Shown here in pieces: positions 9,729 to 32,797 of a stretch of 43,243 bases of DNA. Where the stretch lies: positions 1-43,243 of the forward strand of contig CAIZYV010000065.1 in NCBI GenBank assembly GCA_903937325.1. The letters run 5' to 3'. How positions within the stretch are numbered: the stretch's first letter is position 1; every line of letters starts with the position of its first letter. Below the pieces are notes generated by a model. It did no database searches. It was not told where the DNA came from and saw only the letters and a program-made list of their open reading frames with translations. The position numbers were made by a program, and so were the translations under genes. This DNA comes from Candidatus Falkowbacteria bacterium (GTDB lineage Bacteria > Patescibacteriota > Patescibacteriia > Patescibacteriales > UBA12465).

Positions 9729-11537
9729 TTAATCAAGTTCACCAAGCGCTTGCAGCGATAAAAGTTTGGCATACAAGCCACCAGAAACCTGAGCTAATTC
9801 TAAATGACTACCCTCTTCTTTAATCATCCCATTTTCTAAAACGATAATCTTATCTGCTTTCTTAATGGTACTTAAACGATGGGCAATAATGATAACGGTA
9901 CGGTTATGGCCAATATGGCTTAAAGCCTCCTGGATTAAACGTTCGCTTTGGCTGTCTAAATTCGAAGTCGCTTCATCAAAAATTAAGATTTTCGGATCGG
10001 CTAAGATGGCTCGAGCAATACCAAGGCGTTGACGCTGGCCACCAGATAATTTTATGCCTCGTTCTCCAACCAAAGTATCATAACCCTTATCCAGTTTAAT
10101 AATAAATTCTTCCGCGTTAGCGATGCGAGCGGCCGCTATAATTTCTTCTTGACTAGCCTGTGGATAAGCGTAACTAATATTATCACTGACGCTGACATCA
10201 AAAATTTCTACTTCCTGGGGGACGATGGCTAAACAGCGACGATAAGCAAAAAGATCAAAATCACGAATATCACGGCCGTCAACCAAAACTTTACCAGCAC
10301 TGGGATCATAATGACGATATAACAAGCGAGCAATAGTCGTTTTACCTCCGCCGGAAGGACCGACTAAAGCCAGCGTTGTGCCAGAACTAACCTTAAAACT
10401 TACATTATTTAAGGCCTGGGCTTTAGCCTCACGATAGCAGAAAGACACGTTCTTAAATTCAATCTTACCTTGAAGCTTAACGGGCTTTATCGCTGTAGCG
10501 CTATTTTTAATTTCACTTTCCGAGCGGAATAAGAGAAGTAAGCGGCTAACGCCTTCTCGGCCCTCTTCCATTCGATCATAAAAACGAGACAAACGGAAAG
10601 TCGAAGCATAAGCCTTTTCGCTAAGAGTAAAGGCAAAAATTAAAGTACCGACGCTCATACTACCGCGATAAACAAGATAAACACCTAAAAATAAAACCGC
10701 CGCCCGACCAATATCAACTATTAAATTTCGACCCAAGCCAATTTTCATCATCCAACCCCACTGCTTATTTTCATTATCGCGAATACCGGCTTTAATATTG
10801 CTAAATTCCGCTAACTCCCTGTCCTCCTGAACAAAAGACTGAACAGCATTAATATTGATAATAGACTGAGTCATCTTACCGGAAGCAACTTCGTAAGAAC
10901 GGTAGATTTCTTTGCGTACCGGATACATCCGTGCATTCGACCAATAAGTGACAAGAATAAACAAGGAAGAAAAAAATAAAAAAGAGGCGCCAATTCGCCA
11001 ATCAGCCCAAAACAAAGCCGGTATAGTCAAAATAAGCTGCACTAAGGTCGGCGACACTTCCCAGCCGATATTATTTATCAAAGTAGAAATACGATCGACG
11101 CCGCGCTCAATCTTCACAATTTTGCCGCCGGTATTTTCTTTCTCATGATAACCGAGGCTCAAATCCAAGAGCTTAGCCTGTGATTTTAAAGCCAAATGAT
11201 ATTCAATCTTGACCAAAAGCTTCAAGATGCCGCGATCACCAAAATACTGAACAACTGAGCGTATTTGATCAGAACCGAGATATAAAACAATCAGCCAAAG
11301 TAAAAAATTAAGATCTGTCGCCGGAAAATTATAAAGACCATCGATCAGTAATTTTAAAATATAAGGCTTGGACAAATCAAAAATCGCCCCCAAAACAGTA
11401 ATACTGAGGATAAAATAAATCAAACGGCGGAAAGGCAAAAGCAAACGCCAAAATTCCCGCCAGAACTCTCCCCAGGCTAAACTTGGTTTTTTCTTTTCAG
11501 CCTCTTCTTTCTCTGTTTGTGTAGACACTAGCGACAT
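9729..11537 (-). CDS. ABC exporter, fused permease and ATPase (MsbA/type I exporter-like)
   Basis: N-terminal half with about six hydrophobic segments. Walker A GPSGGGKTT, signature LSGGQRQR, Walker B ILIFDEATS, H-loop IAHRLS. Confidence 0.85.
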   Translation of the reverse strand: MSLVSTQTEKEEAEKKKPSLAWGEFWREFWRLLLPFRRLIYFILSITVLGAIFDLSKPYILKLLIDGLYNFPATDLNFLLWLIVLYLGSDQIRSVVQYFGDRGILKLLVKIEYHLALKSQAKLLDLSLGYHEKENTGGKIVKIERGVDRISTLINNIGWEVSPTLVQLILTIPALFWADWRIGASFLFFSSLFILVTYWSNARMYPVRKEIYRSYEVASGKMTQSIININAVQSFVQEDRELAEFSNIKAGIRDNENKQWGWMMKIGLGRNLIVDIGRAAVLFLGVYLVYRGSMSVGTLIFAFTLSEKAYASTFRLSRFYDRMEEGREGVSRLLLLFRSESEIKNSATAIKPVKLQGKIEFKNVSFCYREAKAQALNNVSFKVSSGTTLALVGPSGGGKTTIARLLYRHYDPSAGKVLVDGRDIRDFDLFAYRRCLAIVPQEVEIFDVSVSDNISYAYPQASQEEIIAAARIANAEEFIIKLDKGYDTLVGERGIKLSGGQRQRLGIARAILADPKILIFDEATSNLDSQSERLIQEALSHIGHNRTVIIIAHRLSTIKKADKIIVLENGMIKEEGSHLELAQVSGGLYAKLLSLQALGELD

Positions 11538-17589: not shown

Positions 17590-18057
17590 TTAAGCGAGAA
17601 AATTAATCAAATAAACAGAAGTTAAGGCAGAAGCAGCCAGTAATTGAGAGAGTAAAGAGGCAAGACCAAAAGCATGAGCTAAAAAATGAAAATGCTCGCG
17701 CCGAGAAAAGAAAGTTAAAATGAAAAAATTAATAATTAAAACAGCCAAAGCTAACAGAGGTATATTAAAAGCTCGCCGAGAAGATCCGACAGAATCGATA
17801 CCGAAATCAACATTATAATGAGCTACAAAAAGATCACTGCCGATAACTACAAACAAACGATAAGCAAAAAACCACAACAAAATTTGTAATGACAAAGATA
17901 GCCAAAGATACCAATGATTAGGTCGATAATGCCAATAAACGACTAAAGCATCAGAAAAACGGCGACGAAGCGAATACCAACGGTTATAAAGAGAAAAATT
18001 CATATTTTTTAGAAAGTAGGCGAAATATTGGCCAGAAAAGGCCAAATGACCGAACAA
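17590..18057 (-). CDS. Hypothetical integral membrane protein (start uncertain: TTG 18057 or ATG 18003)
   Basis: Three to four hydrophobic segments and Trp/Tyr-rich loops, with no motif I recognise. It ends 6 nt before mraY. Confidence 0.45.
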   Translation of the reverse strand: MFGHLAFSGQYFAYFLKNMNFSLYNRWYSLRRRFSDALVVYWHYRPNHWYLWLSLSLQILLWFFAYRLFVVIGSDLFVAHYNVDFGIDSVGSSRRAFNIPLLALAVLIINFFILTFFSRREHFHFLAHAFGLASLLSQLLAASALTSVYLINFLA

Positions 18058-18103
18058 TAAGTCAATCGCAACTTTAAACTTATTCTATCATATTATCAAG
18101 CAT

Positions 18104-18132
18104 TTTAAAAATCAAGCGGATAATGATATAAT
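18104..18132 (+). promoter_or_regulatory. Extended -10 promoter for the plus-strand glycosylation operon
   Basis: TTTAAA (18104-18109), 17 nt, then TGaTATAAT (TG at 18124-18125, TATAAT at 18127-18132). The ATG at 18139 follows after exactly 6 nt. Confidence 0.4.
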
Positions 18133-18138
18133 AAATTT

Positions 18139-19257
18139 ATGCCTGAAAAAATAATCAAAACCCTTTGCCGCTATGCCCGTGCACACGGGCATGCTCACTT
18201 ACGCCTAGAAAAAAAAGGTGATCATTTGCTCTGCGTTTGCGGCCTCGGCCAAACAAGTGAATATTTACATCTTGATCGAAAAACAGAACATAATATCACA
18301 GAGACCTTCAGACGATTGGTTGGAGCGGCTGACAATGATTTATTTTCCGATAAACGCTTCAAAATAGCAGACAACAAGCAGCCGATCAGCGGTCGAGCCA
18401 CTCTTTTGCCCTATGATCAAGGAGAGAAACTTTTTATTACTCTCAGTACTGAAAAACCAGCCTTAAGACGTCTATCTGCTTTAGGCCTAAATCGTGAACA
18501 ACAAGCGCTTATTAAAACAAACTTAAAAAAGAAAAGCGGTTTGATTATTATTGCCGGCGGACCAGAAGAGGGCGCCAGCAGCACTTATTATTCCCTGCTC
18601 TCAATCATTGCTAGTAGCGGTGATCGCAGTATTTATTCCTTAGAAGATTATCCTGTTTTAGAAAATAAAGGTGTCAATACAATAAATCTGCGTAAATATA
18701 GCGATCCAAAAACAGCAATAGAAAAAGTCAATCATTTAGACAGTGAGGTTATTGGTATAGACGCTGCTCTACAAGTAGATGATATTAAAGCTCTATGGCA
18801 AAGCGCTCGCAGTGGCCGCTTGATCATTGCGACTTTACCGGTTGCGAGCGCCGCTCTAGCTGTCAAACTATTGCGCCAATCTGGTTTAAGCGCTGCCGAT
18901 ATCGCCTCTCAAATTATTTTTATCAGTGCCCAAAAATTATTTAAACGTCCTTGTCCGCGCTGCCTTCACATCTTCGACCCAGGACTGGAAATAAAGAAAA
19001 AAATAAATAAGCGTTGGCCGGCGGCCAATCTCTGCTGGCCAAAAAAATTATTTTATAATCGCGGTTGTTCTCTTTGCCAAAAAACTAATCGAGAATCAAA
19101 AACAGCCGTTTTTGAAATAATGCGCTTCTGGCCAGATGGACGTTTACAGGACGGTTATGAAGCAATGATTAAAGATGCCCTTGATAAAACCGGACTCGGC
19201 TTGATTAACATTGAGGAAATTGCCAACTGGGCGATGCAGACAACAAAAAAGATATGA
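18139..19257 (+). CDS. PilB/GspE-family secretion-ATPase homologue with degenerate catalytic motifs (pseudo-ATPase)
   Basis: Colinear with the N2 plus ATPase core of T2SS/T4P ATPases and keeps the CPRC...CSLC tetracysteine. The Walker A reads GGPEEGASST, and the Walker B Glu and His box are lost. See findings. Confidence 0.65.
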   Translation: MPEKIIKTLCRYARAHGHAHLRLEKKGDHLLCVCGLGQTSEYLHLDRKTEHNITETFRRLVGAADNDLFSDKRFKIADNKQPISGRATLLPYDQGEKLFITLSTEKPALRRLSALGLNREQQALIKTNLKKKSGLIIIAGGPEEGASSTYYSLLSIIASSGDRSIYSLEDYPVLENKGVNTINLRKYSDPKTAIEKVNHLDSEVIGIDAALQVDDIKALWQSARSGRLIIATLPVASAALAVKLLRQSGLSAADIASQIIFISAQKLFKRPCPRCLHIFDPGLEIKKKINKRWPAANLCWPKKLFYNRGCSLCQKTNRESKTAVFEIMRFWPDGRLQDGYEAMIKDALDKTGLGLINIEEIANWAMQTTKKI

Positions 19258-19913
19258 AGATAGCCTGTGTTATCCCCGCTTATAATGAAGACCGGTATCT
19301 AAACACCGTGATAGCGAAAGTAAAAGCCTTTGTCGATTTTATTATAGTTGTCGATGACGGCTCAGATAAACGCGCAAGTGAACTGGCTCAAAAAGCCGGC
19401 GCTTTTGTATTAAGGCACATAATTAATCGCGGACAAGGAGCCGCCCTGCAAACAGGCAGTGACTACGCTTTGCAATTAGGAGCCGACATTATTGTCCATT
19501 TTGACGCCGATGATCAATTTGCCGCCGCCGAAATACCAGATATTATCGCCCCAATAATCAAAGGAGAAGCGGATATTGTCTTTGGTTCACGATTCTTAGG
19601 AAAAGAGTCAAATCTGCCATGGATAAAAAAATATTTAATCTGGCCTCTCGGCCGTTTAATTAACCGATTTTTTGGCGTTCACACCAGCGATCCACAAAGT
19701 GGTTTTAGGGCCTACACCAAAGAAGTAGCAGAAAGTTTTCGCATCGAAAATGACCGAATGGCTCATTGCAGCGAAATTTTAATCAAACTCGGTCGCGGTC
19801 GTTGGCGCTTTAAAGAAGTACCAATAACAGTCACTTATCACGAATATGGGCAAAAATTCTCTGGCGGCATCCGTATTCTCAAAGATCTTTTCATTCAAAA
19901 AATAAATCAATAA
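19254..19913 (+). CDS. Family 2 glycosyltransferase, polyprenol-phosphate sugar synthase-like (DPM1/GtrB type, no TM tail)
   Basis: CVIPAYNE, VVDDGSD, and the DxD-type FDADDQ. Its ATG overlaps the upstream TGA (ATGA at 19254-19257). Confidence 0.8.
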   Translation: MKIACVIPAYNEDRYLNTVIAKVKAFVDFIIVVDDGSDKRASELAQKAGAFVLRHIINRGQGAALQTGSDYALQLGADIIVHFDADDQFAAAEIPDIIAPIIKGEADIVFGSRFLGKESNLPWIKKYLIWPLGRLINRFFGVHTSDPQSGFRAYTKEVAESFRIENDRMAHCSEILIKLGRGRWRFKEVPITVTYHEYGQKFSGGIRILKDLFIQKINQ

Positions 19914-19937
19914 ATAGTAAAAAATAACCCTAATATT

Positions 19938-20255
19938 ATGCTGCAGCAAAGCATCGCCCTCATCTTTATAGCCATTTTTATCTGGCGCTTATTTACGCAA
20001 AGAAAAAAACAAACAATCAACAACAACGAATTTATTTTTTGGTTAGCCTTCTGGTTGATTGGTGCTTTGGCTATTATTTTCATTCGATTACTGGACAAAC
20101 TACTTATCACTGCTGGTTTTTCTGGTTCCGGTATTAATTTCTTGCTCTATCTTGCCGTTATTACTTTATTTTATTTAATTTTTAAATTACGTTTAAAAAT
20201 AAGCAAATTAGAAAAGAGCTTAACTGATTTAGTGCGCGAACTTGCCCTTAAATAA
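19938..20255 (+). CDS. Small membrane protein (DUF2304-like by size, topology and GT2 adjacency)
   Basis: 105 aa with three to four TM segments and a C-terminal amphipathic helix (KISKLEKSLTDLVRELAL). The family assignment comes from memory of typical GT2-DUF2304 pairs and is not verified. Confidence 0.45.
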   Translation: MLQQSIALIFIAIFIWRLFTQRKKQTINNNEFIFWLAFWLIGALAIIFIRLLDKLLITAGFSGSGINFLLYLAVITLFYLIFKLRLKISKLEKSLTDLVRELALK

Positions 20256-20277
20256 TAACGCTAAAAAGACAATCGCT

Positions 20278-21450
20278 ATGAAAATCGCCCAAATTGTCTG
20301 TGCTTTTCCACCCTATGCCGGCGGCATTGGTCAAAGCGCTTATCGTCTTGGAGAAATCTTAAGTCGCGAACATCAAGTGAGCACTTTTACTCTCGCCCCT
20401 GATGACGGGAAATTACCGTCCGCGCCTTTAGGTGTACAACGCGTATTTTTTTTACGCCCAAAAATTCGTTTTGGCCACGGCGCCCTACCTTTAAGTCTAC
20501 CCTTCCGATTGCTTTCTTACGATTTACTTTATTTGCACTATCCTTTTTTTGGCACCGATGCTTTAATTCTATTACTTACAAGACTGAAGAAAAAACAACG
20601 CCTAATTATTCACTATCACATGGATACGCCGGCACTACCAGGCATAAAAAAGATACTAGCGGCTCCTTCGCGCTTTCTCTTAAAAAGTTTGATAAAAAGA
20701 GCAGAAAAAATTATTGTCAGCAGCCGTGATTATGCCGAAAATGGTCAACTAGCCAAAAGCGCCGCTCTTTATCCAGAAAAAATAAAAGCTATCCCTTTCG
20801 GAATAGAAACAGAAGTCTTCCGCCCAAAAATAAAAACTCAAAGCCAGAATATTGCCAAACAAGCGACCGATATAATTGATTTTGTAACCAGGCGTTTTAT
20901 AAAGAGGGGCGGACATGTTTTGCTTTTTGTCGGAGGCTTGGATAATGCTCATTATTTTAAAGGCTTGAATATTCTTCTGCGCGCCATACCATTAGTGAAA
21001 GCGCCGATAAGTCTTAATATTATCGGTGACGGCGATCTGCGTCCAAATTATGAAAAAGAGGTGGCGACGTACGGATTAAAACAAAAAGTGCGCTTCCTCG
21101 GAAGAGTCAGCGAGGAAGAGTTGATCAGACAATATCAGAGCGCGGATCTCCTAATTTTACCTTCAATAAATAAACATGAAGCTTTCGGCCTAGTACTAAT
21201 TGAAGCAATGTCTTGCGGCCTGCCTCTTATCGCCAGCAACTTGCCTGGTATGCGCAGTGTTTTTAATGATGGAGAACAAGGCCTGTACTGCAAAGCGGGT
21301 GATGTTGATGATTTAGCAGAAAAAATAAGCTCATTAGTACAAGATGAAAAAAGACGCCAGCAAATGGCAAAAGCAGCCAGAGCCCTAGCTCAAGAAAAAT
21401 ACGCCTGGGAAAAAATCGCCGATAAAATTTTAGATGAATTTTCCGAATAG
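20278..21450 (+). CDS. Family 4 (GT-B, Glycos_transf_1) glycosyltransferase
   Basis: The start is moved to ATG 20278 (MKIAQIVCAFPPYAGGIG). The C-terminal E-x7-E region is EAFGLVLIEAMSCGLPLIAS. Confidence 0.8.
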   Translation: MKIAQIVCAFPPYAGGIGQSAYRLGEILSREHQVSTFTLAPDDGKLPSAPLGVQRVFFLRPKIRFGHGALPLSLPFRLLSYDLLYLHYPFFGTDALILLLTRLKKKQRLIIHYHMDTPALPGIKKILAAPSRFLLKSLIKRAEKIIVSSRDYAENGQLAKSAALYPEKIKAIPFGIETEVFRPKIKTQSQNIAKQATDIIDFVTRRFIKRGGHVLLFVGGLDNAHYFKGLNILLRAIPLVKAPISLNIIGDGDLRPNYEKEVATYGLKQKVRFLGRVSEEELIRQYQSADLLILPSINKHEAFGLVLIEAMSCGLPLIASNLPGMRSVFNDGEQGLYCKAGDVDDLAEKISSLVQDEKRRQQMAKAARALAQEKYAWEKIADKILDEFSE

Positions 21451-21458
21451 AAACAAAT

Positions 21459-22517
21459 ATGATTATTGGAATAGCTAACAACCTATATCCTCCTTACGGC
21501 CGCGGTAGCGGCGCTGAAGTTATTGTAATTAAAACAGTGCAAGAATTACGCGCCGCCGGACATGAAGTATTTGTCATCAGCACAAAACCGTTAAAATCAA
21601 AACAAGAAGACAGCAGCGACTGTTATTATTTTACTTCGGCTTATCATTCTTTAGCTTCTTGGTCGCCATTCAAAAAAATGGCTTGGCATTGCCAGCAATT
21701 ACTCTTCTCTGGAAACAGGCGACGCCTGAATAAAATTTTAAAAGAAAGACGGCCAGATCTATTTGTTACTCATAATCTCATTGGCCTGGGCTTCAGCTTA
21801 CCAAGCTTATTATTTAAACTCCATATCAGACACGAACACATTTTACATGATATACAATTACTCCACCCTTCAGGTTTAATGTATTTCGGCCAAGAAAAAA
21901 TAATTTGTTCCCCGCTCGCTCGCTTTTACCAATTTTTCACACGACGCGCCTTCAAGAAAGCCGATTTAATTATTTCGCCTTCTCGCTGGCTTTTGAACAC
22001 GCATCAAGAAAGAGGTTTCTTCAAAAAACAGGAGAGTCGAATACAAAAAAATTTTCAGCTCGACAAACCAATAAAAAAAGAACCGAAACAGCCTCTAAAT
22101 TTTCTTTTTACTGGCCAGCTGGAAAAGCATAAAGGCATAGACATGCTGCTACGCGCTTGGCAGGAAGCTTCTCTACCGGAAGCCAAACTCAGTATTGCTG
22201 GCGGAGGCTCTTTAGCAAAGATGGTAGCGGAACAAGCGGAAAAGCAAACCAATATCCACTATCTCGGCTATCTTGACCGCGAAGGAATAGATCAAGCTCT
22301 GCAGAAAGCTGATATTATTATCGTACCCTCTTTAGTCTATGAAAATTCTCCCACCAGCCTTTGGGAAGCCGCTGCTCGAGGACTATGCGCTATTGCCTCT
22401 GATATCGGTGGTATACCGGAAATGAAAGACGAGCTTCACCTCACCCTGTTTCCGCCCGGAAACTTACAAGCTTTAATAGCCGCCATTAAAGAAGCGGCCG
22501 ACAAAAAAAATAAATGA
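21459..22517 (+). CDS. Family 4 (GT-B) glycosyltransferase
   Basis: MIIGIANNLYPPYGRGSGAEV is the N-terminal GT-B loop. The C-terminal half contains FTGQLEKHKGID and ENSPTSLWEAAARGLCAIASDIGG. Confidence 0.75.
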   Translation: MIIGIANNLYPPYGRGSGAEVIVIKTVQELRAAGHEVFVISTKPLKSKQEDSSDCYYFTSAYHSLASWSPFKKMAWHCQQLLFSGNRRRLNKILKERRPDLFVTHNLIGLGFSLPSLLFKLHIRHEHILHDIQLLHPSGLMYFGQEKIICSPLARFYQFFTRRAFKKADLIISPSRWLLNTHQERGFFKKQESRIQKNFQLDKPIKKEPKQPLNFLFTGQLEKHKGIDMLLRAWQEASLPEAKLSIAGGGSLAKMVAEQAEKQTNIHYLGYLDREGIDQALQKADIIIVPSLVYENSPTSLWEAAARGLCAIASDIGGIPEMKDELHLTLFPPGNLQALIAAIKEAADKKNK

Positions 22518-22526
22518 CAAACAATA

Positions 22527-22553
22527 AACGCCGCCACAAAAAGTGACGGCGTT
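22527..22553. terminator. Putative bidirectional terminator between convergent operons
   Basis: AACGCCG-(13 nt loop)-CGGCGTT is a perfect 7-bp stem. A T-rich tract follows on the minus strand (tttattgtttg) and only TTT on the plus strand. Confidence 0.5.
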
Positions 22554-22575
22554 TAAAAAACTAAACAAATATTGA

Positions 22576-23598
22576 TTAAGACTGAAAACCGCGCAGACGC
22601 TTCTGGGCTTGTAAAGAAAAAATTGTTTTCTTTAAACCATTTTCTAGCGTCACAACCGGCATCCAATTCAAAGATTCTTTAGCTAAAGAAATATTAGGCA
22701 AAACCAACTCACTAATAAAAAGACGGCTGTCAGCATAAATTATTTTCGATTCAGAATTTGTTTCTCGAATAATCATCATCGCTAAATCGGTGAAATTAAC
22801 ATCAACATCGGAACCGATATTTATCGGCCCAGCCTGTTTTGAATCCATAAATTTCAGCGCTGCATCAATAACATCTTCAATATAACAGAAAGAAGAAGAA
22901 AAACGATCATCGCCAAAAATACACAAATCTTTGCCGTCTAAAGCATTATTAATAAAATCAGGAATCATTTGATCATCATTAAGTTCCATCCGCGGACCAT
23001 AAACCCGAAAAAGTCTAATTATTTTAGTATCTAACTGAAAAATATCGCGATAGTTACTAATTAAAGTCTCGGCAAAGCGCTTGCCCTCATCATAAGAGCT
23101 GCGCGCCGATAAATGATCAAAAGAACCAAGTTCATTTTCATCAACTTTGCGATCAAAATCCTCAACAGAACGGGGACCGTAAACAACCGAAGAAGAAAAG
23201 TGCAGGAATTTCGCTTTTGTTGCTACCGCAAGATTTAATAAATTAACTAAGCCCACAGAATTAACTGCTAAAGTTGCCAGGCGATTATCTAAAAAATAAC
23301 GCGGTGACATCGGGCAAGCTAAATTATATATTTCCTGCAAGCCCTGAAATTCCAGCTTAAATTTTTTCAATTCCGGTAAATTAAGCCAATCGATTGTTTT
23401 TGTTATATCCTGATTAATAAAAACAAAATCGGAATTAGAAAGAAGATGGTCAATATTGCCCTCACTGCCGGTAGAAAAATTATCGACACAAATTACCTTG
23501 CAGGTCTTAAGCAATTCATCGCACAAATGCGAGCCGATAAAACCGGCGCCACCGGCGACCAACACATTTTTCTTGTCAAAAATTACTTGTTTAGACAT
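22576..23598 (-). CDS. Extended-SDR NDP-sugar enzyme, UDP-glucuronate decarboxylase (UXS)-like
   Basis: VAGGAGFIGSHLCDELL, DNFSTG, and the SSS...YDEGKRFAE catalytic Ser/Tyr/Lys. The start is placed at ATG 23598 (MSKQVIF). The longer track ORF would overlap the upstream gene. Confidence 0.7.
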   Translation of the reverse strand: MSKQVIFDKKNVLVAGGAGFIGSHLCDELLKTCKVICVDNFSTGSEGNIDHLLSNSDFVFINQDITKTIDWLNLPELKKFKLEFQGLQEIYNLACPMSPRYFLDNRLATLAVNSVGLVNLLNLAVATKAKFLHFSSSVVYGPRSVEDFDRKVDENELGSFDHLSARSSYDEGKRFAETLISNYRDIFQLDTKIIRLFRVYGPRMELNDDQMIPDFINNALDGKDLCIFGDDRFSSSFCYIEDVIDAALKFMDSKQAGPINIGSDVDVNFTDLAMMIIRETNSESKIIYADSRLFISELVLPNISLAKESLNWMPVVTLENGLKKTIFSLQAQKRLRGFQS

Positions 23599-23602
23599 AT
23601 TA

Positions 23603-25630
23603 TTAATTAATAAAGTCGAAAATGCCGACATTGACACCGCCGGTAAAATCAACAGCAAAAGCATAAAAAGATTCTTTGAGCTCACCTAGGCCACTAAAAA
23701 CGCGGACATGAGGAGTGGCCCCAGGACGAGTACCCACCACGATATCCGCCCGACCATCGTTATCTAAATCACCAGCGGCCACATTAACGCCTCCTTGCCA
23801 ATTACGGCCATAGACCAAAAAAGATTTTTTTAATACGGCTTTATTGGAAAATATTTTTAAAAGTGGTTCTCTGCCCGGGCCAGGAGCAACAATAATTTCC
23901 GCCTTATTACGATCCGCTCGACCATCAAGATTTGCTACTGCTACTTGAACGCCTCCACGAAAACTTTTTTCAAAAGCTAAAAATTGACCCTGTAAATAGC
24001 CACGGCGATCAAAAATTTTAATATCGGAAGAGCCTCCCTGACCACGCCCGACAACAATTTCCGCCGCACCTTGGCCATCTATATTACCGGCGGCAACGTT
24101 AACTCCGCCACGAAAACTTTCTTCAAAAGCAAAAAATTGTCCTTTCAGGCGACCCTTATGATCAAAGATACGGACATGGGGACCACCGCCAGCACCAGCG
24201 CCAACAATAATTTCCGCCAAACCATCATCATTTACATCAGCCAGGGCTAAGCTAAAACCGCCTTTAAAACGGCGATCAAAAACTAAGAAACGGCCACGAT
24301 GCTTGCCATCCGGACCATAGATATCAACGAAAGGTTCTTGACCGGCAGAAGCAGCTATCACCAATTCACTTTCATTATTACCATCAACGTCACCGGAAGC
24401 AAAAACACCATTACTAAAAAGATTTAAAGAGCGGCGCTCTAAAATAATACCACTTTTATCACTGATTATTATCTCCGAACTACTAGCAGCCACTACTGGA
24501 CTAAAAACTAAACGGCCAAGGCGAGCATACAAACGCTCCTGAGCAGCGGACAAAGCACGATCAAGATTTATACGACCAGAACCCAATTGACTCAAATAGG
24601 TGGGATTAAGTCGGCTAATATTGTCAGTCGACTGCAACAAAACGGTCACAATTTCCGTTGGACTAAGTTGAGGATTAATTTCCGCTATTAAAGCCAAGGA
24701 ACCGCTGATAACTGGAGCAGCCATAGAAGTCCCTGACCAAAAGCCATCATAATATTTATCTCTTTCTTTAGGGTTGCCGCCGTAAGTTATGGTGCTAAAA
24801 AAACTAACCCCTGGAGCAGCAATATCGACACATTTAAAACCATAGCTGGAAAAATCAGCTTTTTGATCTAAAGCATCAGTAGCTGCCACACCAATTACCA
24901 TATTCTCTCCGTTCTTACCGTCATAACAAGCCGGATAAATCGGATTTTTATCAGTATTATAGCCTTCGCCATCAGACTGCTCATTACCAGCGGCAGCAAC
25001 AACAATCACTCCAGCGTCATAAGCGCGCTGGATGGCATCTTGTAGAGCTTGGCTGTAACTAAAACCGACAAAGCTTAAATTAATAATATCAGCGCCATTA
25101 TGAACGGCGTAATCAATAGCGCGAACCACAGCGCCAATACGCCCCTCACCGCGGTCATTTAAGGCTCGTAAAGACATGAGTTTCGCCCGCCAAGTTAAAC
25201 CGGTAATTCCCTGCCGATTATTGCCAGTAGCCGCAATAATGCCGGCAACCATCGTGCCGTGAGAAATACCAGATTCTGTCCAATTGTCATCAAACTTAGG
25301 TGAAGGGTCAGGAATATTTTGTACAAAATCCCAGCCGTTTATATCGTCAATAAAACCATTACGATCGTCATCAATTTTATTGCCAACCACTTCACGCTCA
25401 TTAATCCAGATATTATCTTTTAAATCAGGATGATTCGTTTGTACGCCAGCATCAACAACGGCAATAATAATATCAGGACTGCGATTAATTTTTTCCCAAG
25501 CCGCCGGCGCTTTAATACGAGCAAGATACCACTGCTGATTATAGTAATAATCATTAGGCAAAAAGCTGGCTCCGGCAACCGGAACCACAAGAAATAAAAA
25601 TGCAAAAAAAGATGCCACGAATCGTTTCAT
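23603..25630 (-). CDS. Secreted subtilisin-family (S8) serine protease fused to a C-terminal FG-GAP-type beta-propeller
   Basis: Signal peptide MKRFVASFFAFLFLVVPVAGA. Triad D60 (AVVDAGV), H124 (SHGTMVAG) and S302 (GTSMAAP), with oxyanion N216 (AAGNE). Residues 408-675 hold about 5.2 repeats of the form GG-V-x-V-A-x-G-D/N-x-D-G-x-x-E-I-V-V-G...F. Confidence 0.8.
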   Translation of the reverse strand: MKRFVASFFAFLFLVVPVAGASFLPNDYYYNQQWYLARIKAPAAWEKINRSPDIIIAVVDAGVQTNHPDLKDNIWINEREVVGNKIDDDRNGFIDDINGWDFVQNIPDPSPKFDDNWTESGISHGTMVAGIIAATGNNRQGITGLTWRAKLMSLRALNDRGEGRIGAVVRAIDYAVHNGADIINLSFVGFSYSQALQDAIQRAYDAGVIVVAAAGNEQSDGEGYNTDKNPIYPACYDGKNGENMVIGVAATDALDQKADFSSYGFKCVDIAAPGVSFFSTITYGGNPKERDKYYDGFWSGTSMAAPVISGSLALIAEINPQLSPTEIVTVLLQSTDNISRLNPTYLSQLGSGRINLDRALSAAQERLYARLGRLVFSPVVAASSSEIIISDKSGIILERRSLNLFSNGVFASGDVDGNNESELVIAASAGQEPFVDIYGPDGKHRGRFLVFDRRFKGGFSLALADVNDDGLAEIIVGAGAGGGPHVRIFDHKGRLKGQFFAFEESFRGGVNVAAGNIDGQGAAEIVVGRGQGGSSDIKIFDRRGYLQGQFLAFEKSFRGGVQVAVANLDGRADRNKAEIIVAPGPGREPLLKIFSNKAVLKKSFLVYGRNWQGGVNVAAGDLDNDGRADIVVGTRPGATPHVRVFSGLGELKESFYAFAVDFTGGVNVGIFDFIN
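23606..24409 (-). repeat. In-frame coding repeats of about 150 bp (FG-GAP blades), partly conserved at the DNA level
   Basis: For example, ccacgaaaactttYttcaaaagcWaaaaattg recurs near 23955 and 24108. Blades begin at about aa 408, 458, 509, 560, 614 and 665. Confidence 0.7.
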
Positions 25631-26951: not shown

Positions 26952-27959
26952 CTATTTAGTCGCTAAAATACTCCGCTTATAGGAATCAAGATTGTCTAAG
27001 GCAATACCTGTGCCTTTCACTACACAAAGCAAGGCGTCGTCGGCAACATAGGCAGGCACGCCGGTAGCACGGGAAACAAGCTGATCCATATTGCGCAGTA
27101 AGGAACTCCCACCAGAAAGAATAATACCTTTATCCATAATATCAGCCGATAATTCTGGAGGTGTTTTTTGTAGAACTCTCTTAGCGGCAGAGATAATCGC
27201 TTCTAGCTCAGTCTGAATCGCTTCGGTAACATCATCACTGGAAACAGTAATACTACGAGGCAAGCCAGTCACAATATCTCGCCCGCGTATTTCCATATAT
27301 AATTTATCTTCTATATATAAAGCGGAACCAATATTAATTTTTATTTCTTCAGCTGTTCGCTCACCGATAGCCAGATTATATTTCTTGCGGACATGTTCTA
27401 AAATAGCGGCGTCAAATTTATTACCACCGACACGAACAGAAGTCGAAGCGACAATACCACCTAAAGAAATTACGGCCATTTCAGCTGTTCCGCCACCAAT
27501 ATCAATAATCATATGACCAGTAGCGGAACCAATAGGAATATCGGCACCAATAGCGGCAGCAATCGGTTCTTTAATAATATAAGCAGCTTTAGCACCAGCA
27601 GCAATCGTTGCTTCGATAACGGCACGGCGCTCAGTCGAAGAGATGCCGGCCGGCACTGCTACCATAACTTCCGGACGAAATAAGCGAATGCCACCTAAAG
27701 TTTTATTGATAAAATAACGAATCATTGCTTCAGTAGTTCGATAATCAGCAATCACTCCGTCTTTCAAAGGACGGGCAGCAACAATAGTATCAGGCGTGCG
27801 GCCGAGCATATCTTTGGCCTCATTACCGACAGCTAAAATTTTATTATCTTCTAAAGAAACGGCAACAACGGAAGGCTCATTAATAACAATACCCCGGCGC
27901 GGCAAATGCACCAAGGTATAAGTTGTCCCGAGATCGATGCCGATACGTTTTATAAACAT
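26952..27959 (-). CDS. mreB: Actin-like MreB paralogue (second copy)
   Basis: IGIDLGTTYTLV, NEPSVVAV, DIGGGTAEMAVISLGG and ILSGGSSLLRNMD, which together form a full actin-fold ATPase motif set. Confidence 0.85.
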   Translation of the reverse strand: MFIKRIGIDLGTTYTLVHLPRRGIVINEPSVVAVSLEDNKILAVGNEAKDMLGRTPDTIVAARPLKDGVIADYRTTEAMIRYFINKTLGGIRLFRPEVMVAVPAGISSTERRAVIEATIAAGAKAAYIIKEPIAAAIGADIPIGSATGHMIIDIGGGTAEMAVISLGGIVASTSVRVGGNKFDAAILEHVRKKYNLAIGERTAEEIKINIGSALYIEDKLYMEIRGRDIVTGLPRSITVSSDDVTEAIQTELEAIISAAKRVLQKTPPELSADIMDKGIILSGGSSLLRNMDQLVSRATGVPAYVADDALLCVVKGTGIALDNLDSYKRSILATK

Positions 27960-28569: not shown

Positions 28570-29544
28570 TTATGAATTAATTTTCTTTAAAGGGCGCCAC
28601 CAGCTTTCATTTTGCCGGTACCAGTCTACTGTATCCGCCAAACCTTGTTCGAAAGAAATTTGTGGCGACCAGCCCAATTCCTTAGAAGCTTTGCTAAAAT
28701 CAATGGCATAACGCAAATCATGGCCAGGACGATCACCAACATGTTCAATAAAACTTTCATCTCTACCTGTTAAATTCAGTATTTGTTTAGTAATTACCAA
28801 ATTACTGCGTTCACTATCGCCACCTAAACAATAAGTTTCACCTATCCGTCCTTTACGTAGAATCAAATCAACACCACGATTATGATCATTAACATGAATC
28901 CAGTCACGGATGTTACCGCCCTGACCATACACCGGAACCTTGCGGCCGTCAATCAAATTAGTAATAAACAAAGGAATCAACTTTTCCGGATATTGATAAG
29001 GGCCGTAATTATTAGAACAATTAGAAATCGTCACCGGTAAGCGATGAGTATGATAATAAGCGCGGACTAAATGATCGGCGGCAGCTTTAGAAGCACTATA
29101 AGGAGATCGCGGATCATAGGCGGTGCTTTCCTGAAAACGAGGACTATCAAAAGATAAAGAACCAAAAACTTCATCGGTAGAAATATGATGAAAACGAATG
29201 CCACCATGCTTCTTAGCGGCCTCAAGTAAAACGCGCGTGCCCTCAATATTAGTTCGGACAAAAGCGGCGCTGTTTAAAATAGAACGGTCAACATGACTTT
29301 CGGCCGCAAAATGAACGATAGCATCCACACCAACCATCAAACTATCAACTAACTCGATATCAGCAATATCACCGTGCACAAAGCGATAATTCGGCTTATC
29401 CGCGATAGTTTTTAAATTTTCCAAATTACCAGCGTAAGTTAAGGCATCCAGATTAATGATATCATCATCAGGATAAGTATTAAGCCAGTAATGAATAAAA
29501 TTAGCGCCGATAAAGCCGGCGCCACCGGTAACTAATAATTTCAT
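28570..29544 (-). CDS. rfbB: dTDP-glucose 4,6-dehydratase
   Basis: MKLLVTGGAGFIGANF, STDEVFG and YSASKAAADHLVRAY. The length (324 aa) and C-terminus are typical of RmlB. Confidence 0.85.
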   Translation of the reverse strand: MKLLVTGGAGFIGANFIHYWLNTYPDDDIINLDALTYAGNLENLKTIADKPNYRFVHGDIADIELVDSLMVGVDAIVHFAAESHVDRSILNSAAFVRTNIEGTRVLLEAAKKHGGIRFHHISTDEVFGSLSFDSPRFQESTAYDPRSPYSASKAAADHLVRAYYHTHRLPVTISNCSNNYGPYQYPEKLIPLFITNLIDGRKVPVYGQGGNIRDWIHVNDHNRGVDLILRKGRIGETYCLGGDSERSNLVITKQILNLTGRDESFIEHVGDRPGHDLRYAIDFSKASKELGWSPQISFEQGLADTVDWYRQNESWWRPLKKINS

Positions 29545-29547
29545 AAA

Positions 29548-29943
29548 TTATGATTTTAAACGGGCACTAATTTCTTCGGCTTCACCAGAATTATAAGGAG
29601 CCGAGGGCCAAAGATTAAGATTATCACCAGACTGACGAGGAATGACATGAAAGTGAAGATGAGGGACGGTTTGCCCAGACACAGAATCATTATTTTCTGT
29701 AACATTATAACCGCCATAACCAAGTTTATCTTTCAATAAGAGACCCATTTTTTTAACAACAATAATCAGGGCGCTGAGATCTTCTTCGGAAACTTCCTCA
29801 ATATTAAGTACGTGCTTCTTAGGCAAAACGAGCATATGACCAGGAAAAACAGGGCTAATATCTAACATAGCGAGAACCTTTTCATCCTCATATATTTTAT
29901 AACTTGAAATATCGCCGGCTATGATTTGACAAAAAATACACAT
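29548..29943 (-). CDS. HIT-family (Hint-branch) nucleotide hydrolase/transferase
   Basis: N-terminal CIFCQI and the histidine triad HLHFHVIP. Confidence 0.8.
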   Translation of the reverse strand: MCIFCQIIAGDISSYKIYEDEKVLAMLDISPVFPGHMLVLPKKHVLNIEEVSEEDLSALIIVVKKMGLLLKDKLGYGGYNVTENNDSVSGQTVPHLHFHVIPRQSGDNLNLWPSAPYNSGEAEEISARLKS

Positions 29944-29967
29944 AAATTAAAAAATTAACGACAGTAT

Positions 29968-30417
29968 TTATATTTTATACGGGCTATTTGGATCTATTTC
30001 CCAGCGAATTTCATCTATCTCTTCCTTTTTCAAAATACCTTTATACAACTTATCCGGAAAATTAATGGACAGAGCCGACGTTTCAGAAATACATTGATAA
30101 CCGTGCACAACGCCCGGAGGCACAAGCACTGAACAAGGATTATCCTCCCCTACTTCAATTTCCATCTTCTCGCCGAAAGTCTTAGATTCAGCCCGACGAT
30201 CCCAAAGGTGTAAGCGAAAACGACCGGGACCAATAAAAATAAAATAATCGCTCTGATAGACATGCTCATGCGGGCCACGAATAACGCCGGGCAAAGTTAA
30301 GCTGACATAAGACATTGCCGGAGCCGAATCAAGTTCATCGCGCCGATAAATTTCCGTTAACCAACCGCGCTCATCCTCATATTTCTTGAGTTCCCTAACA
30401 ATAACGCCGCTTATCAT
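29968..30417 (-). CDS. Short RmlC-like cupin (dTDP-4-dehydrorhamnose 3,5-epimerase-like)
   Basis: YEDERGWLTEIYR, GVIRGPHEH and PPGVVHGYQC resemble the RmlC D-x-RG-x-F-x-E, RG-x-H and HGF blocks. It is only 149 aa. Confidence 0.55.
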   Translation of the reverse strand: MISGVIVRELKKYEDERGWLTEIYRRDELDSAPAMSYVSLTLPGVIRGPHEHVYQSDYFIFIGPGRFRLHLWDRRAESKTFGEKMEIEVGEDNPCSVLVPPGVVHGYQCISETSALSINFPDKLYKGILKKEEIDEIRWEIDPNSPYKI

Positions 30418-31438: not shown

Positions 31439-31978
31439 TTATCGCCCTTTCAAAAAAAATGGTTGCAAACGGCGACTAGCCAGAGCCAGGAGATTAAAAA
31501 ATAAGGCTACCAAGAAAACACCCAAGGCTAAACTCCAGGCTAATGATTCCCAAAAAGTGGCGGAAAACAAAAATAAGCGACCAGAAGAACCGGACCAATC
31601 AAAAATAACCAACAAAATATTAAAAATAAAAGCTTCAGCAGTGATTCCGATAATGCTTAGCAAAAGGAAAGAATATAAAGAACGGTTAGTTAAAACATTT
31701 TCTAAAACAAAATACATAATCACAGCACTTAAAAATAAAGACAGCAAGGACAAACCAAAGGGATGGAAGCTAAAAACATCTATAAAAAAACCAGCCGCTA
31801 AAGCTAAAAACCAAACACGATCACGACTAACCATTAAACAAGAAAAAATAATGGCGATTAAAATAATATCCAGATTACTCCATGGCCAAGGCAAGAAAGA
31901 AATTAAAGAAAATTGTACTAGAGCTAAAAACGCCGCCAAAGATAAGAAAATTAAAAATGAAAAAATCTTTTTATACAT
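31439..31978 (-). CDS. mreD: Rod shape-determining protein MreD (by position and topology)
   Basis: A 179-aa protein with about five TM segments, starting 3 nt after the mreC stop. Confidence 0.55.
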   Translation of the reverse strand: MYKKIFSFLIFLSLAAFLALVQFSLISFLPWPWSNLDIILIAIIFSCLMVSRDRVWFLALAAGFFIDVFSFHPFGLSLLSLFLSAVIMYFVLENVLTNRSLYSFLLLSIIGITAEAFIFNILLVIFDWSGSSGRLFLFSATFWESLAWSLALGVFLVALFFNLLALASRRLQPFFLKGR

Positions 31979-31981
31979 AAA

Positions 31982-32797
31982 TTAAGGCAAAACAACAGCC
32001 ACAACCGTTAAATTATAAAGAGAGGCAATCGGTTCAATACTGACATCCTGCCAAATTTCATTACTTTGATTATTAACCTGAGCAACGCGACCAATTACTA
32101 GACCACGAGGAATATTGTCGCCTAACCCAGAGCTGATAACAATATCACCTTCTTTTATTTGCTCCATCTGCGGAATATAATTCATTTTAATGGTCAGGCC
32201 AAGTTCCCCCTCGGAAAGTCCGATGGTTTTAGTGCCGTTTAAAATAGCAGCCGCTAGCTGGCAGTTATTGCCGGTCGTCAAACAAGCTCTAGAACTATTA
32301 TCTTTTACTTCGATAATTTTGCCGATGATTACACCAGATTCATTAATTACTCCAAGACCAGTAATAATTCCATCTTTAGAACCTCTGTCTAAAATGATAT
32401 CCTGAGCATTACCTTCGGCATCAAAAAGATTCTGCCTGGAAACGATATTAGCGCTAACCAAACGATAATGATTATTATTATTTAAAAAATTTAATTGTTG
32501 GCGCAATTTGTTATTTTCCTCGACTAAGAGTTGTAATTGTGCCTGATCAACAATAGCAAGCACCAGTTTATTTTCTGCCACCGTTAATTTAGCCACAATC
32601 TCTTCAATAGAATTGGCATCATTCGGCCTCCCTTGGAACCAAGTGCTTAAACCATGCAAAGACTTGCCCAGAGGCCTAATCGCTATCGTCAAGCTATTTT
32701 CTAAAGGTCGCGACAAACGGGAAAAATGAGCAAAAAAAATAAAGGCGATAATAAAAAGCCAAAGCCAAATCTTTTTAATTTTCCAGGCTAAACGCAT
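31982..32797 (-). CDS. mreC: Rod shape-determining protein MreC
   Basis: N-terminal TM segment, coiled coil (LVEENNKLRQQLNFL), and beta domains with GDIVISSGLGDNIPRGLVIGRV. Confidence 0.75.
   Translation of the reverse strand: MRLAWKIKKIWLWLFIIAFIFFAHFSRLSRPLENSLTIAIRPLGKSLHGLSTWFQGRPNDANSIEEIVAKLTVAENKLVLAIVDQAQLQLLVEENNKLRQQLNFLNNNNHYRLVSANIVSRQNLFDAEGNAQDIILDRGSKDGIITGLGVINESGVIIGKIIEVKDNSSRACLTTGNNCQLAAAILNGTKTIGLSEGELGLTIKMNYIPQMEQIKEGDIVISSGLGDNIPRGLVIGRVAQVNNQSNEIWQDVSIEPIASLYNLTVVAVVLP

What the first reader, a model, noticed from the sequence alone, without database searches (positions are those of the whole stretch)
18104..22553. Candidate novel system: opposite-strand operon in which the dead secretion ATPase is translationally coupled to a GT2, a small membrane protein and two GT4s
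Five plus-strand genes form a compact unit in an otherwise minus-strand region. The unit is bounded by an extended -10 promoter (18104-18132) and a hairpin terminator (22527-22553).

The pseudo-ATPase stop overlaps the GT2 start (ATGA at 19254-19257). The remaining gaps are 24, 22 and 8 nt. The GT2 is the soluble polyprenol-phosphate-sugar-synthase type. It is followed by a 105-aa membrane protein with three to four TM segments and two GT-B transferases.

The locus has no Wzx/Wzy/ABC flippase, no pilus platform and no secretin. A hexameric-ATPase scaffold that has lost catalysis and is hard-wired to a glycan assembly line is not an arrangement I recognise from described O-antigen, capsule, teichoic-acid or pilin-glycosylation loci.

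As inference only, the pseudo-ATPase may act as a membrane-proximal scaffold or regulator. It could couple lipid-linked glycan synthesis to a type IV pilus/competence machine or to the adjacent divisome (the mraY cluster is divergent from it).
Basis: inference. Interest (0 to 1): 0.75.

Follow-up and report, generated by a model that had tools for sequence, protein, structure and literature searches.

The report
Dead PilB relic beside glycan genes
The five-gene unit is real, but its "dead secretion ATPase" is a conserved, inactive descendant of the pilus motor gene pilB, still sitting where a whole pilus operon lies in related bacteria, and the sugar-transferase genes after it are a known module that about half of the relatives carry without it.

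Summary
Observation confirmed. Five plus-strand genes (18139-22517) lie behind a conserved extended -10 promoter and ahead of a strong hairpin: a 372-aa PilB/GspE-core protein without Walker lysine, catalytic Glu or His box, then a 219-aa GT2, DUF2304 and two GT4s. The first stop and second start overlap (ATGA).

- GT2 + DUF2304 is the known GacI/GacJ (PpgS/Rv3632) type of polyprenyl-phosphate-sugar synthase pair.
- In related Patescibacteria, the slot divergent from mraY-orf~140 holds an intact 573-aa pilB heading a pilB-pilC-pilins-pilM-pilN operon (4 of 5 contexts looked up). In other lineages an intact pilB sits directly before the same GT2 cluster.
- Across 60 informative metagenome loci with the orthologous GT2, the upstream slot holds intact pilB (6), degenerate 288-418-aa forms (21) or no such gene (33).

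It is not a decaying pseudogene. The fold is intact (pLDDT 86, TM 0.79 to PilF), length is fixed, and dN/dS is 0.06-0.08, the same as GT2. It is best read as a lineage-specific PilB-derived pseudoenzyme of unknown, dispensable role. A direct link to the glycan module is possible but unproven.

The parts
18104..18132 (+). Extended -10 promoter (TTTAAA-17-TG-n-TATAAT). The -10 ends 6 nt before the ATG, so the mRNA is probably leaderless.
   Evidence: Best-scoring site of the scan. TGnTATAAT and its 6-nt distance to the ATG are conserved in 10 relatives (A4).
18077..18103 (-). Conserved intergenic block (consensus TATTGTATCATATTATT...). It is a candidate divergent promoter of the orf155-mraY (dcw) operon.
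   Evidence: Conserved columns in A4. Minus-strand promoter-like hits at 18115-18087, 18109-18082 and 18099-18071. Function is inferred.
18139..19257 (+). PilB/GspE-core pseudo-ATPase, 372 aa (N2D + CTD + Zn-finger subdomain). It has no N-terminal MshEN domain, Walker Lys, catalytic Glu or His box.
   Evidence: PF00437 81 bits. Motif comparison. AF2 pLDDT 86 and Foldseek TM 0.79 to PilF 5oiu. dN/dS 0.06-0.08. Occupies the slot of pilB in relatives.
19254..19913 (+). Short soluble GT2 of the polyprenyl-phosphate-sugar synthase (GacI/PpgS) type. Its start overlaps the upstream stop (ATGA).
   Evidence: PF00535 81 bits. Best NCBIfam PpgS at 157 bits, below the equivalog cut-off of 370. Closest PDB sequences are DPMS 5mlz and ArnC. 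D84-A-D86 and 90 other positions are invariant in 9 orthologues.
19938..20255 (+). DUF2304 small membrane protein (105 aa, about three TM segments), the GacJ/Rv3632-type partner of the GT2.
   Evidence: PF10066 67.8 bits against a cut-off of 25.5. GacJ/Rv3632 bind and stimulate their GT2 (paper 10.1101/180810). Found after the GT2 in nearly all 93 loci.
20278..21450 (+). GT4 (GT-B) glycosyltransferase a. The likely start is ATG 20278; the longest ORF starts at TTG 20242.
   Evidence: PF00534 140 bits and PF13439. Relatives align from about residue 10-13.
21459..22517 (+). GT4 (GT-B) glycosyltransferase b.
   Evidence: PF00534 92 bits and PF13439 62 bits. Syntenic in relatives.
22525..22555 (.). 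13-bp G+C-rich hairpin between convergent genes. The U-run is on the minus strand, so it terminates the epimerase gene and is possibly bidirectional.
   Evidence: dG -16.7 kcal/mol, z -6.4.
17590..18057 (-). orf155, a multi-TM protein of no known family and the first gene of the divergent mraY-ftsW-murG-murC block. It marks the orthologous slot in all relatives.
   Evidence: No Pfam or NCBIfam hit. Homologues lie next to mraY in L001-L058 and L094-L098.
22576..23685 (-). Convergent NAD-dependent sugar epimerase/dehydratase. With S8/FG-GAP, GT4c and MreB it forms the conserved right flank, and in rearranged relatives it lies directly upstream of the GT2.
   Evidence: PF01370 139 bits. Synteny.

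Best explanation
**What it is.** The unit joins two things of different origin.

(a) Genes 2-5 are an envelope-glycan module of a known kind.
- A GacI/PpgS-like GT2 works with its DUF2304 (GacJ/Rv3632-like) membrane partner. Together they make a polyprenyl-monophosphate sugar on the cytoplasmic face.
- Two cytoplasmic GT4 enzymes follow.
- The module works with the neighbouring epimerase and GT4c genes.
- Any flippase or GT-C transferase must be encoded elsewhere.

(b) Gene 1 is the positional descendant of pilB.
- In related Patescibacteria the site divergent from mraY-orf~140 carries the type IV pilus operon pilB-pilC-pilins-pilM-pilN.
- In the lineage of the window the rest of that operon is gone from the locus, and the glycan cluster abuts pilB.
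- The pilB copy has lost its N-terminal MshEN domain (about 200 aa) and its ATP-binding and hydrolysis residues.
- It keeps the N2D-CTD-Zn fold.

**Shown.**
- The gene is kept under strong purifying selection, so it makes a working non-catalytic protein (a pseudoenzyme).
- It is repeatedly shortened or deleted in sister lineages that keep the glycan cluster, so the glycan module does not need it.

**Inferred.**
- It no longer powers a pilus.
- It most likely survives as a nucleotide-independent oligomeric adaptor.
- As the leaderless first cistron, its translation feeds ribosomes into the overlapping GT2 start.
- Whether its partner is the GT2/DUF2304 complex or pilus parts encoded elsewhere is open.
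For: **Motif loss.**

**Intact fold.** AF2 pLDDT 86, pTM 0.80. Foldseek TM 0.79 to PilF 5oiu_C, also EpsE and Geobacter PilB.

**A bounded family.**
- Clade members score 423 bits or more against the family profile, while true PilBs score 130 or less.
- The exhaustive search adds 34 short cluster representatives. Of these, 31 lack the His box, 26 lack the catalytic Glu and 10 lack the Walker Lys.

**Selection.** dN/dS is 0.060, 0.063 and 0.082 at dS 0.67, 0.63 and 0.16. GT2 gives 0.059, 0.048 and 0.094 for the same pairs.

**Slot homology.**
- L095-L098 show murC..murG-ftsW-mraY-orf129-137 (-) | pilB 573 aa-pilC-pilin-like ORFs-pilM-pilN (+).
- L094, L031, L035, L081 and L084 show an intact pilB directly before GT2-DUF2304-GT4-GT4.
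- mraY is 70-73% identical and orf155 is recognisable in those loci.

**Graded series at the slot.** Forms of 579, 418, 360, 290 and 0 aa occur. The slot count is 6 intact, 21 degenerate and 33 none among 60 informative metagenome loci.

**Phylogeny.** In an NJ tree the short forms are monophyletic (0.95-0.99) and sister to the slot-PilB clade.

**GT2/DUF2304.**

**Promoter conservation.**
Against: - The sister relation of the short forms to the slot PilBs has only 43% bootstrap support in a simple NJ tree, and long-branch attraction could create the short-form clade. An old paralogue that replaced pilB at the slot is not excluded.
- I could not scan whole genomes of the clade. It is unknown whether a canonical pilB and pilus genes exist elsewhere.
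- Where a T2SSE-family gene is present it is always the immediate upstream neighbour of GT2 (40 of 40 loci), usually within 30 nt or overlapping. This holds in a second left-hand context too (after the epimerase in L068 and L086). That fits a real partnership as well as it fits inheritance.
- No flippase or GT-C enzyme was found in the window, so the fate of the lipid-linked sugar is unexplained.
Confidence: 0.7

Rival explanations
1. One reading: the dead hexameric ATPase is a dedicated scaffold or regulator of the GT2/DUF2304/GT4 assembly line, and the five genes form a new functional system.
For: - ATGA overlap or gaps of 30 nt or less between the T2SSE-family gene and GT2 in most loci that have both.
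- The adjacency is kept in two different left-hand contexts (L068, L086).
- Purifying selection is equal to that on GT2.
- No pilus genes lie in the 43-kb window.
Against: - 33 of 60 informative loci keep the cluster without any such gene.
- The partner varies from an intact 579-aa PilB to 288-aa stubs without the Zn domain. That is hard to square with one conserved interface.
- The adjacency is explained by descent from a pilB-headed operon.
- The epimerase is packed just as tightly against GT2 in rearranged loci.
- In most clade members an opposite-strand gene separates GT2 from DUF2304.
Confidence: 0.17
2. The protein still belongs to pilus biology. It would be an inactive PilB paralogue that joins or regulates a type IV pilus or competence machine encoded elsewhere (for example mixed hexamers with a canonical PilB, or binding to PilC/PilM), and its position next to GT2 would be incidental.
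For: - Complete N2D-CTD-Zn core with conserved N2D arginines R73 and R86 and Asp-box E169.
- Patescibacteria commonly carry more than one PilB (paper PMC11623550).
Against: - The N-terminal domain of canonical PilB is lost.
- No pilus gene or pilin-like motif lies in the window or in the flanks of 13 clade loci.
- None of the 120 best canonical-PilB hits comes from a contig with the length of a known clade contig. This is weak evidence because the list is truncated.
Confidence: 0.12
3. It is a non-functional relic, an ORF kept open only by chance or because its translation drives the overlapping GT2 start.
For: - Repeated truncation and loss in sister lineages.
- It evolves faster than its neighbours over long distances: 52-63% identity against 71-80% for GT2 and 86-91% for MraY.
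Against: - dN/dS is 0.06-0.08 in unsaturated pairs.
- Length is fixed at 364-372 aa.
- 36 positions are invariant across 22 sequences down to 34% identity.
- The predicted fold is confident.
Confidence: 0.03

Closest known systems
PilB / PilF / GspE (EpsE) assembly ATPases of type IV pili and type II secretion (Pfam T2SSE PF00437)
   Same: - Same N2D + CTD fold, including the tetracysteine Zn subdomain (Foldseek TM 0.79 to 5oiu_C, 0.72 to 1p9w).
- Asp-box Glu and N2D arginines are kept.
- It sits at the genomic slot that holds pilB in relatives.
   Different: - No N-terminal MshEN/T2SSE_N domain.
- Walker Lys, catalytic Glu and both His-box histidines are replaced.
- It scores 78 bits against an equivalog cut-off of 676.
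- No pilC, pilM or pilins nearby.
GacI/GacJ of Streptococcus pyogenes and PpgS/Rv3632 of Mycobacterium tuberculosis (GT2 + DUF2304 polyprenyl-phosphate-HexNAc synthase pairs)
   Same: - A short soluble GT2 followed by a roughly 105-113-aa three-TM DUF2304 protein.
- PpgS is the best NCBIfam match (157 bits).
- The published partners form a complex, and the small protein raises the activity of the GT2.
   Different: - Below the equivalog cut-off, so the sugar is unknown.
- No Wzx-like GacK or GT-C GacL/Rv3779 counterpart was found in the window.
- In most clade relatives an opposite-strand gene separates the two.
Dolichyl-/undecaprenyl-phosphate glycosyltransferases with solved structures (DPMS 5mlz, ArnC 9hwj/9bhc)
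   Same: The GT-A catalytic domain aligns over residues 1-209 (E 3e-14 to 2e-8).
   Different: Those enzymes carry their own C-terminal membrane helices. Here the membrane part is a separate DUF2304 protein.
Non-catalytic members of motor-ATPase families, e.g. archaellum ArlH/FlaH (recalled from memory, not tested here)
   Same: A RecA-type motor relative kept as an accessory subunit without normal hydrolysis.
   Different: It belongs to a different family (KaiC-like) and still binds ATP. No evidence here of a motor partner.

Membership tests
T2SSE secretion/pilus ATPase superfamily (PF00437) | Domain match above Pfam's gathering score | tested here: met
   81 bits against 24.9, residues 64-330.
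T2SSE secretion/pilus ATPase superfamily (PF00437) | N2D + CTD two-domain fold | tested here: met
   AF2 pLDDT 86, pTM 0.80. Foldseek TM 0.79 to PilF and 0.72 to EpsE over about 383 columns.
Active PilB/GspE ATPase | Walker A GxxGxGK[ST] | tested here: not met
   GGPEEGAS, with Lys replaced by A146. The clade consensus is EENGA[ST]ST.
Active PilB/GspE ATPase | Walker B with catalytic Glu (DPDxxxVGEIRD) and His box (TGHxxxSTLHT) | tested here: not met
   DSEVIGIDAALQ and SGRLIIATLPVA. Glu -> A209; His -> R227 and P234.
Active PilB/GspE ATPase | Tetracysteine Zn-binding motif | tested here: met
   C272, C275, C310 and C313 are conserved in 21 of 22 clade sequences.
PilB proper (type IVa pilus assembly ATPase, TIGR02538) | N-terminal MshEN/T2SSE_N domain and equivalog score | tested here: not met
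   No PF05157 hit. 372 aa against about 570. 77.8 bits against a cut-off of 675.65.
PilB proper (type IVa pilus assembly ATPase) | Encoded with pilC, pilM/N/O and pilins | tested here: not met
   None in the window and no pilin-like N-terminal motif. The orthologous slot in relatives does carry them.
GacI/PpgS-type polyprenyl-phosphate-sugar synthase (GT2) | GT2 GT-A domain with a DxD motif in a short form without its own TM helices | tested here: met
   PF00535 81 bits. 219 aa. D84-A-D86 invariant in 9 orthologues.
GacI/PpgS-type polyprenyl-phosphate-sugar synthase (GT2) | Equivalog-level match to PpgS (NF058614) | tested here: not met
   Best family, but 156.9 bits against a cut-off of 370. 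It is a family-level relative and the sugar is not assignable.
GacI/GacJ-type pair | Adjacent DUF2304 small membrane partner | tested here: met
   PF10066 67.8 bits, 24 nt downstream. The pairing is described in the paper read.
GacI/GacJ-type pathway | Flippase (Wzx/GtrA-like) and GT-C transferase that use the lipid-linked sugar | tested here: not met
   No such Pfam family among the 44 window ORFs of 100 aa or more. They may lie elsewhere in the genome.
GacI/GacJ-type pathway | Polyprenyl-P-HexNAc synthase activity stimulated by the small protein | not testable with these tools
   Needs a membrane enzyme assay.
Wzx/Wzy- or ABC-dependent O-antigen/capsule locus | Wzx + Wzy, or Wzm/Wzt, and an initiating phosphoglycosyltransferase in the locus | tested here: not met
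   None in 18104-22553. Only an MsbA-type ABC exporter at 9729-11537 and MraY.
Pilin glycosylation systems (PglL/TfpO O-oligosaccharyltransferase, TfpW GT-C) | Oligosaccharyltransferase or GT-C next to pilin genes | tested here: not met
   No Wzy_C or GT-C family hit and no pilin gene in the window.

The most novel reading that the evidence does not exclude
The PilB-derived pseudoenzyme has been recruited as a nucleotide-independent ring or adaptor. It would dock on the GT2/DUF2304 polyprenyl-phosphate-sugar synthase and tie envelope glycan synthesis to the cell-wall (dcw/MreB) machinery. That would be a motor protein turned into a glycosylation scaffold, with natural intermediates (Walker A kept but Glu/His lost; 418-aa and 360-aa forms) still present in sister lineages.
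Probability: 0.15. Interest if true: 0.7.

Novelty: new variant of a known kind. Interest (0 to 1): 0.35.

Why it matters
**Annotation.** Public records call these proteins 'PilB-like', 'TadA' or 'T2SS/T4P ATPase'. They cannot be ATPases, so counting them as evidence of pili or competence in Patescibacteria genomes would mislead.

**Biology.** The locus offers a natural series at one chromosomal slot:
- an intact pilus motor;
- forms that keep only the P-loop;
- fully dead but strongly conserved forms;
- loss of the gene.

This makes the birth of a pseudoenzyme from a secretion ATPase directly testable in organisms with tiny genomes, where useless genes rarely persist.

**The glycan genes.** They extend the GacI/GacJ-type module to Patescibacteria, whose envelope polymers are essentially unknown. 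In itself that is an ordinary finding.

Tried and rejected
- **Synteny in the genome collection.** All 10 loci are fully syntenic over 20 kb (MreB 95-97% identical), so the conserved order there says nothing specific about gene 1 and GT2. I rejected it as evidence and moved to more distant GT2 orthologues.
- **Word-indexed protein searches.** These suggested a tiny family of about 26 clusters. The exhaustive search showed a wider and more degenerate family.
- **Looking for a canonical PilB of the window clade through contig-length fingerprints.** No match among the 120 rows shown. This is inconclusive because the list is cut at 73% identity.
- **Biopython NJ with bootstraps.** It timed out, so I replaced it with my own NJ. 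Support for the key node is only 0.43.
- **Literature searches** for 'pseudo-ATPase' + 'type IV pilus' and for 'PilB' + 'degenerate Walker'. No papers were found in the library. This is not proof of absence.
- **Defence-system reading of the GT4s.** The PF20706 'GT4-conflict' hits are far weaker than the general GT4 families, so I rejected it.
- **Co-folding of gene 1 with GT2/DUF2304.** The structure tool does not offer this.
- **Pilin motif search in all window ORFs.** Nothing found.

Full report
**1. What is in the sequence**

Five plus-strand ORFs lie between minus-strand blocks:
- 18139-19257 (372 aa)
- 19254-19913 (219 aa)
- 19938-20255 (105 aa)
- 20242/20278-21450
- 21459-22517

On the left are orf155, mraY, ftsW, murG and murC. 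On the right are an epimerase/dehydratase, an S8 subtilase with FG-GAP repeats, a third GT4 and MreB.

The 22-nt gap uses ATG 20278, which the alignments to relatives support.

Pfam and NCBIfam give T2SSE (81 bits), GT2 (81 bits; best NCBIfam PpgS at 157 bits, below the equivalog cut-off), DUF2304 (67.8 bits) and two GT4 proteins.

*Promoter.* The site at 18104-18132 is the best of the scan and has the TG of an extended -10. The TGnTATAAT and its 6-nt distance to the start codon are conserved in ten relatives. A leaderless transcript follows by inference.

*Hairpin.* The hairpin at 22525-22555 is strong (dG -16.7 kcal/mol, z -6.4). Its U-run lies on the minus strand, so it first of all ends the convergent epimerase gene.

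**2. The ATPase is dead but not decaying**

Aligned with EpsE, PilF and PilB:
- the Walker A lysine is A146;
- the catalytic Glu of GEIRD is A209;
- the two His-box histidines are R227 and P234;
- the Asp-box E169-D170 and the four cysteines remain.

The N-terminal roughly 200 residues of a true PilB are absent. There is no PF05157 hit, and the protein scores 78 bits against a PilB cut-off of 676.

The fold is intact. AlphaFold2 on a 22-sequence alignment gives pLDDT 86 and pTM 0.80. The model superposes on the N2D-CTD core of PilF (TM 0.79), EpsE and Geobacter PilB over its whole length.

Relatives of 364-372 aa share the same substitutions and 36 invariant positions.

In unsaturated pairs dN/dS is 0.060, 0.063 and 0.082 (dS 0.67, 0.63, 0.16). 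This matches GT2 (0.059, 0.048, 0.094). A decaying pseudogene is therefore excluded.

**3. GT2 + small membrane protein is a known pair**

DUF2304 is the family of GacJ and Rv3632. GacJ forms a detergent-stable complex with the GT2 GacI, lowers its Km for undecaprenyl phosphate and raises its Vmax. Rv3632 stimulates PpgS. The two genes are often adjacent or fused (paper 10.1101/180810, read).

The window GT2 has the short soluble form and a conserved D-A-D. Its closest solved relatives are polyprenyl-phosphate glycosyltransferases, DPMS and ArnC.

The enzymes that would flip and use the lipid-linked sugar were not found in the window. An MsbA-type ABC exporter lies at 9729-11537 and dTDP-sugar genes at 28570-30417.

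**4. Comparative context**

*Close relatives.* Ten genome loci and the contigs of two distant members (33% and 38% identity) show the same order. The whole 20-kb block is syntenic there, so that result does not discriminate.

*More distant GT2 orthologues.* I fetched 80 metagenome loci carrying orthologous GT2 genes (51-81% identity). I annotated them with the window proteins and a family profile. Among the 60 loci with enough upstream sequence, the slot before GT2 holds:

| Slot content | Loci |
|---|---|
| 574-579-aa PilB with every motif intact | 6 |
| Degenerate T2SSE-family gene | 21 |
| No such gene | 33 |

The degenerate forms fall into three groups:
- 418 aa with the Walker Lys lost but the Glu kept;
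- 288-364 aa with GK[ST] kept but Glu and His lost, many without the Zn domain;
- the 369-372-aa form of the window clade.

Where there is no such gene, orf155 is directly divergent from GT2 in 5 loci. In most of the others the cluster is rearranged so that the epimerase gene lies upstream of GT2, directly so in 23 loci.

*Spacing.* Overlaps or gaps of a few nucleotides are seen both with T2SSE genes and with the epimerase.

*The wider family.* The exhaustive profile search found 34 short cluster representatives. Of these, 31 lack the His box, 26 lack the Glu and 10 lack the Walker Lys.

**5. The slot is the pilB slot**

The intact PilBs at the slot belong to a highly conserved Patescibacteria PilB group (73-100% identity among the best 120 hits).

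Of the five contigs looked up, four (L095-L098) show this arrangement:

murC..murG-ftsW-mraY-orf129-137 (-) | pilB-pilC-four small ORFs-a ~410-aa ORF-pilM-pilN-like.. (+)

The small ORFs have pilin-type N-termini such as GFTLLEII.

The fifth contig (L094) shows pilB directly followed by GT2-DUF2304-GT4-GT4, with pilM further on, on the other strand.

MraY is 70-73% identical to the window's, and orf155 is recognisable.

A neighbour-joining tree groups the short forms (0.95-0.99) and puts them next to the slot PilBs, but with only 0.43 support.

The simplest history has four steps:
1. A pilus operon was headed by pilB, divergent from the dcw genes.
2. The glycan cluster came to lie next to pilB.
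3. The other pilus genes were lost from the locus.
4. The stranded pilB lost its N-terminal domain and its catalytic residues.

**6. How it most likely works**

*Shown:*
- a non-catalytic, well-folded, selected protein;
- a glycan module that many relatives keep without it.

*Inferred:*
- The glycan module works like GacI/GacJ plus cytoplasmic GT4s.
- The pseudo-ATPase is an accessory, dispensable adaptor.
- As the first cistron of a probably leaderless mRNA, its translation may help load ribosomes on the overlapping GT2 start.

My probability estimates for its role:

| Role | Probability |
|---|---|
| Real partnership with GT2/DUF2304 | about 0.15-0.2 |
| Role with pilus parts encoded elsewhere | about 0.1 |
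| Other role, not identified | the remainder |

**7. Novelty**

The glycan genes are members of known kinds. The pseudo-ATPase is a variant of the T2SSE family, and I found no paper on it in the library. The absence of a paper there is not proof.

Public annotation as a 'PilB-like ATPase' is misleading.

**8. Limits**

- I had no whole-genome access to clade members.
- No multimer modelling was possible.
- The tree is a simple distance tree.
- The promoter and terminator are consensus matches, supported by conservation only.

Noticed in passing
L001 11826-12272 (-), L003 11812-12261 (-), L004 11816-12334 (-), L005 11810-12244 (-), L006 11799-12221 (-), L009 9211-9642 (-), L011 11824-12249 (-): Most relatives carry a minus-strand gene for a 140-172-aa multi-TM protein between GT2 and DUF2304. 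It has the N-terminal motif MKxxW..GLxWFxxIYxLVR and no Pfam family. It is absent from the window, L007 and L016. Where present, it splits the five genes into two transcription units.
   Followed up: partly
proteins P0063-P0081: Proteins of about 1000 aa with two tandem T2SSE ATPase cores, both with intact Walker A, Walker B and His box. They scored among the best matches to the family profile.
   Followed up: no
window 18124-18141 and alignment A4: The extended -10 (TGATATAAT) ends exactly 6 nt before the ATG in the window and in ten relatives. This leaves no room for a Shine-Dalgarno site, so the first gene is probably translated from a leaderless mRNA.
   Followed up: partly
window 22525-22555: The hairpin between the convergent GT4b and epimerase genes has its U-run on the minus strand (UUAUUGUUUGU...). 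On the plus strand it is followed by UUUAAAAAA.
   Followed up: yes
window 22576-23685 (-) and 23603-25630 (-): The longest epimerase ORF (GTG start) overlaps the end of the S8 subtilase ORF by 83 nt. Most relatives align only from about residue 25-30, so the real start is probably further downstream.
   Followed up: no
window 23603-25630 (-): A 675-aa secreted S8 subtilase fused to FG-GAP/beta-propeller repeats. It is conserved next to the glycan cluster in nearly all related loci, in both arrangements.
   Followed up: no
window 26952-27959, 32801-33847, 31982-32797, 31439-31978 (all -): Two MreB paralogues, MreC and a likely MreD (179-aa multi-TM protein, no Pfam hit) lie in one 43-kb stretch of what appears to be a small Patescibacteria genome. 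They sit together with murB, murC, murG, ftsW and mraY.
   Followed up: no
window 9729-11537 (-): An MsbA-type ABC exporter (ABC_membrane + ABC_tran) lies next to the mur genes. The same gene sits beside murC in L095. It is a possible lipid-linked-glycan flippase candidate.
   Followed up: no
L035 4793-5899 (+), L043 664-2253 and 2774-3517 (+), L094 6494-8782 (+): In lineages with an intact pilB before the GT2 cluster, one or two large secreted proteins without Pfam families lie between orf~138 and pilB.
   Followed up: no
window 17590-18057 (-) and homologues in L001-L058, L094-L098: orf155, a roughly 130-155-aa multi-TM protein without a family, is always the first gene upstream of mraY in these Patescibacteria, whatever lies across the divergent promoter. 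It may be an unrecognised dcw-cluster component.
   Followed up: partly
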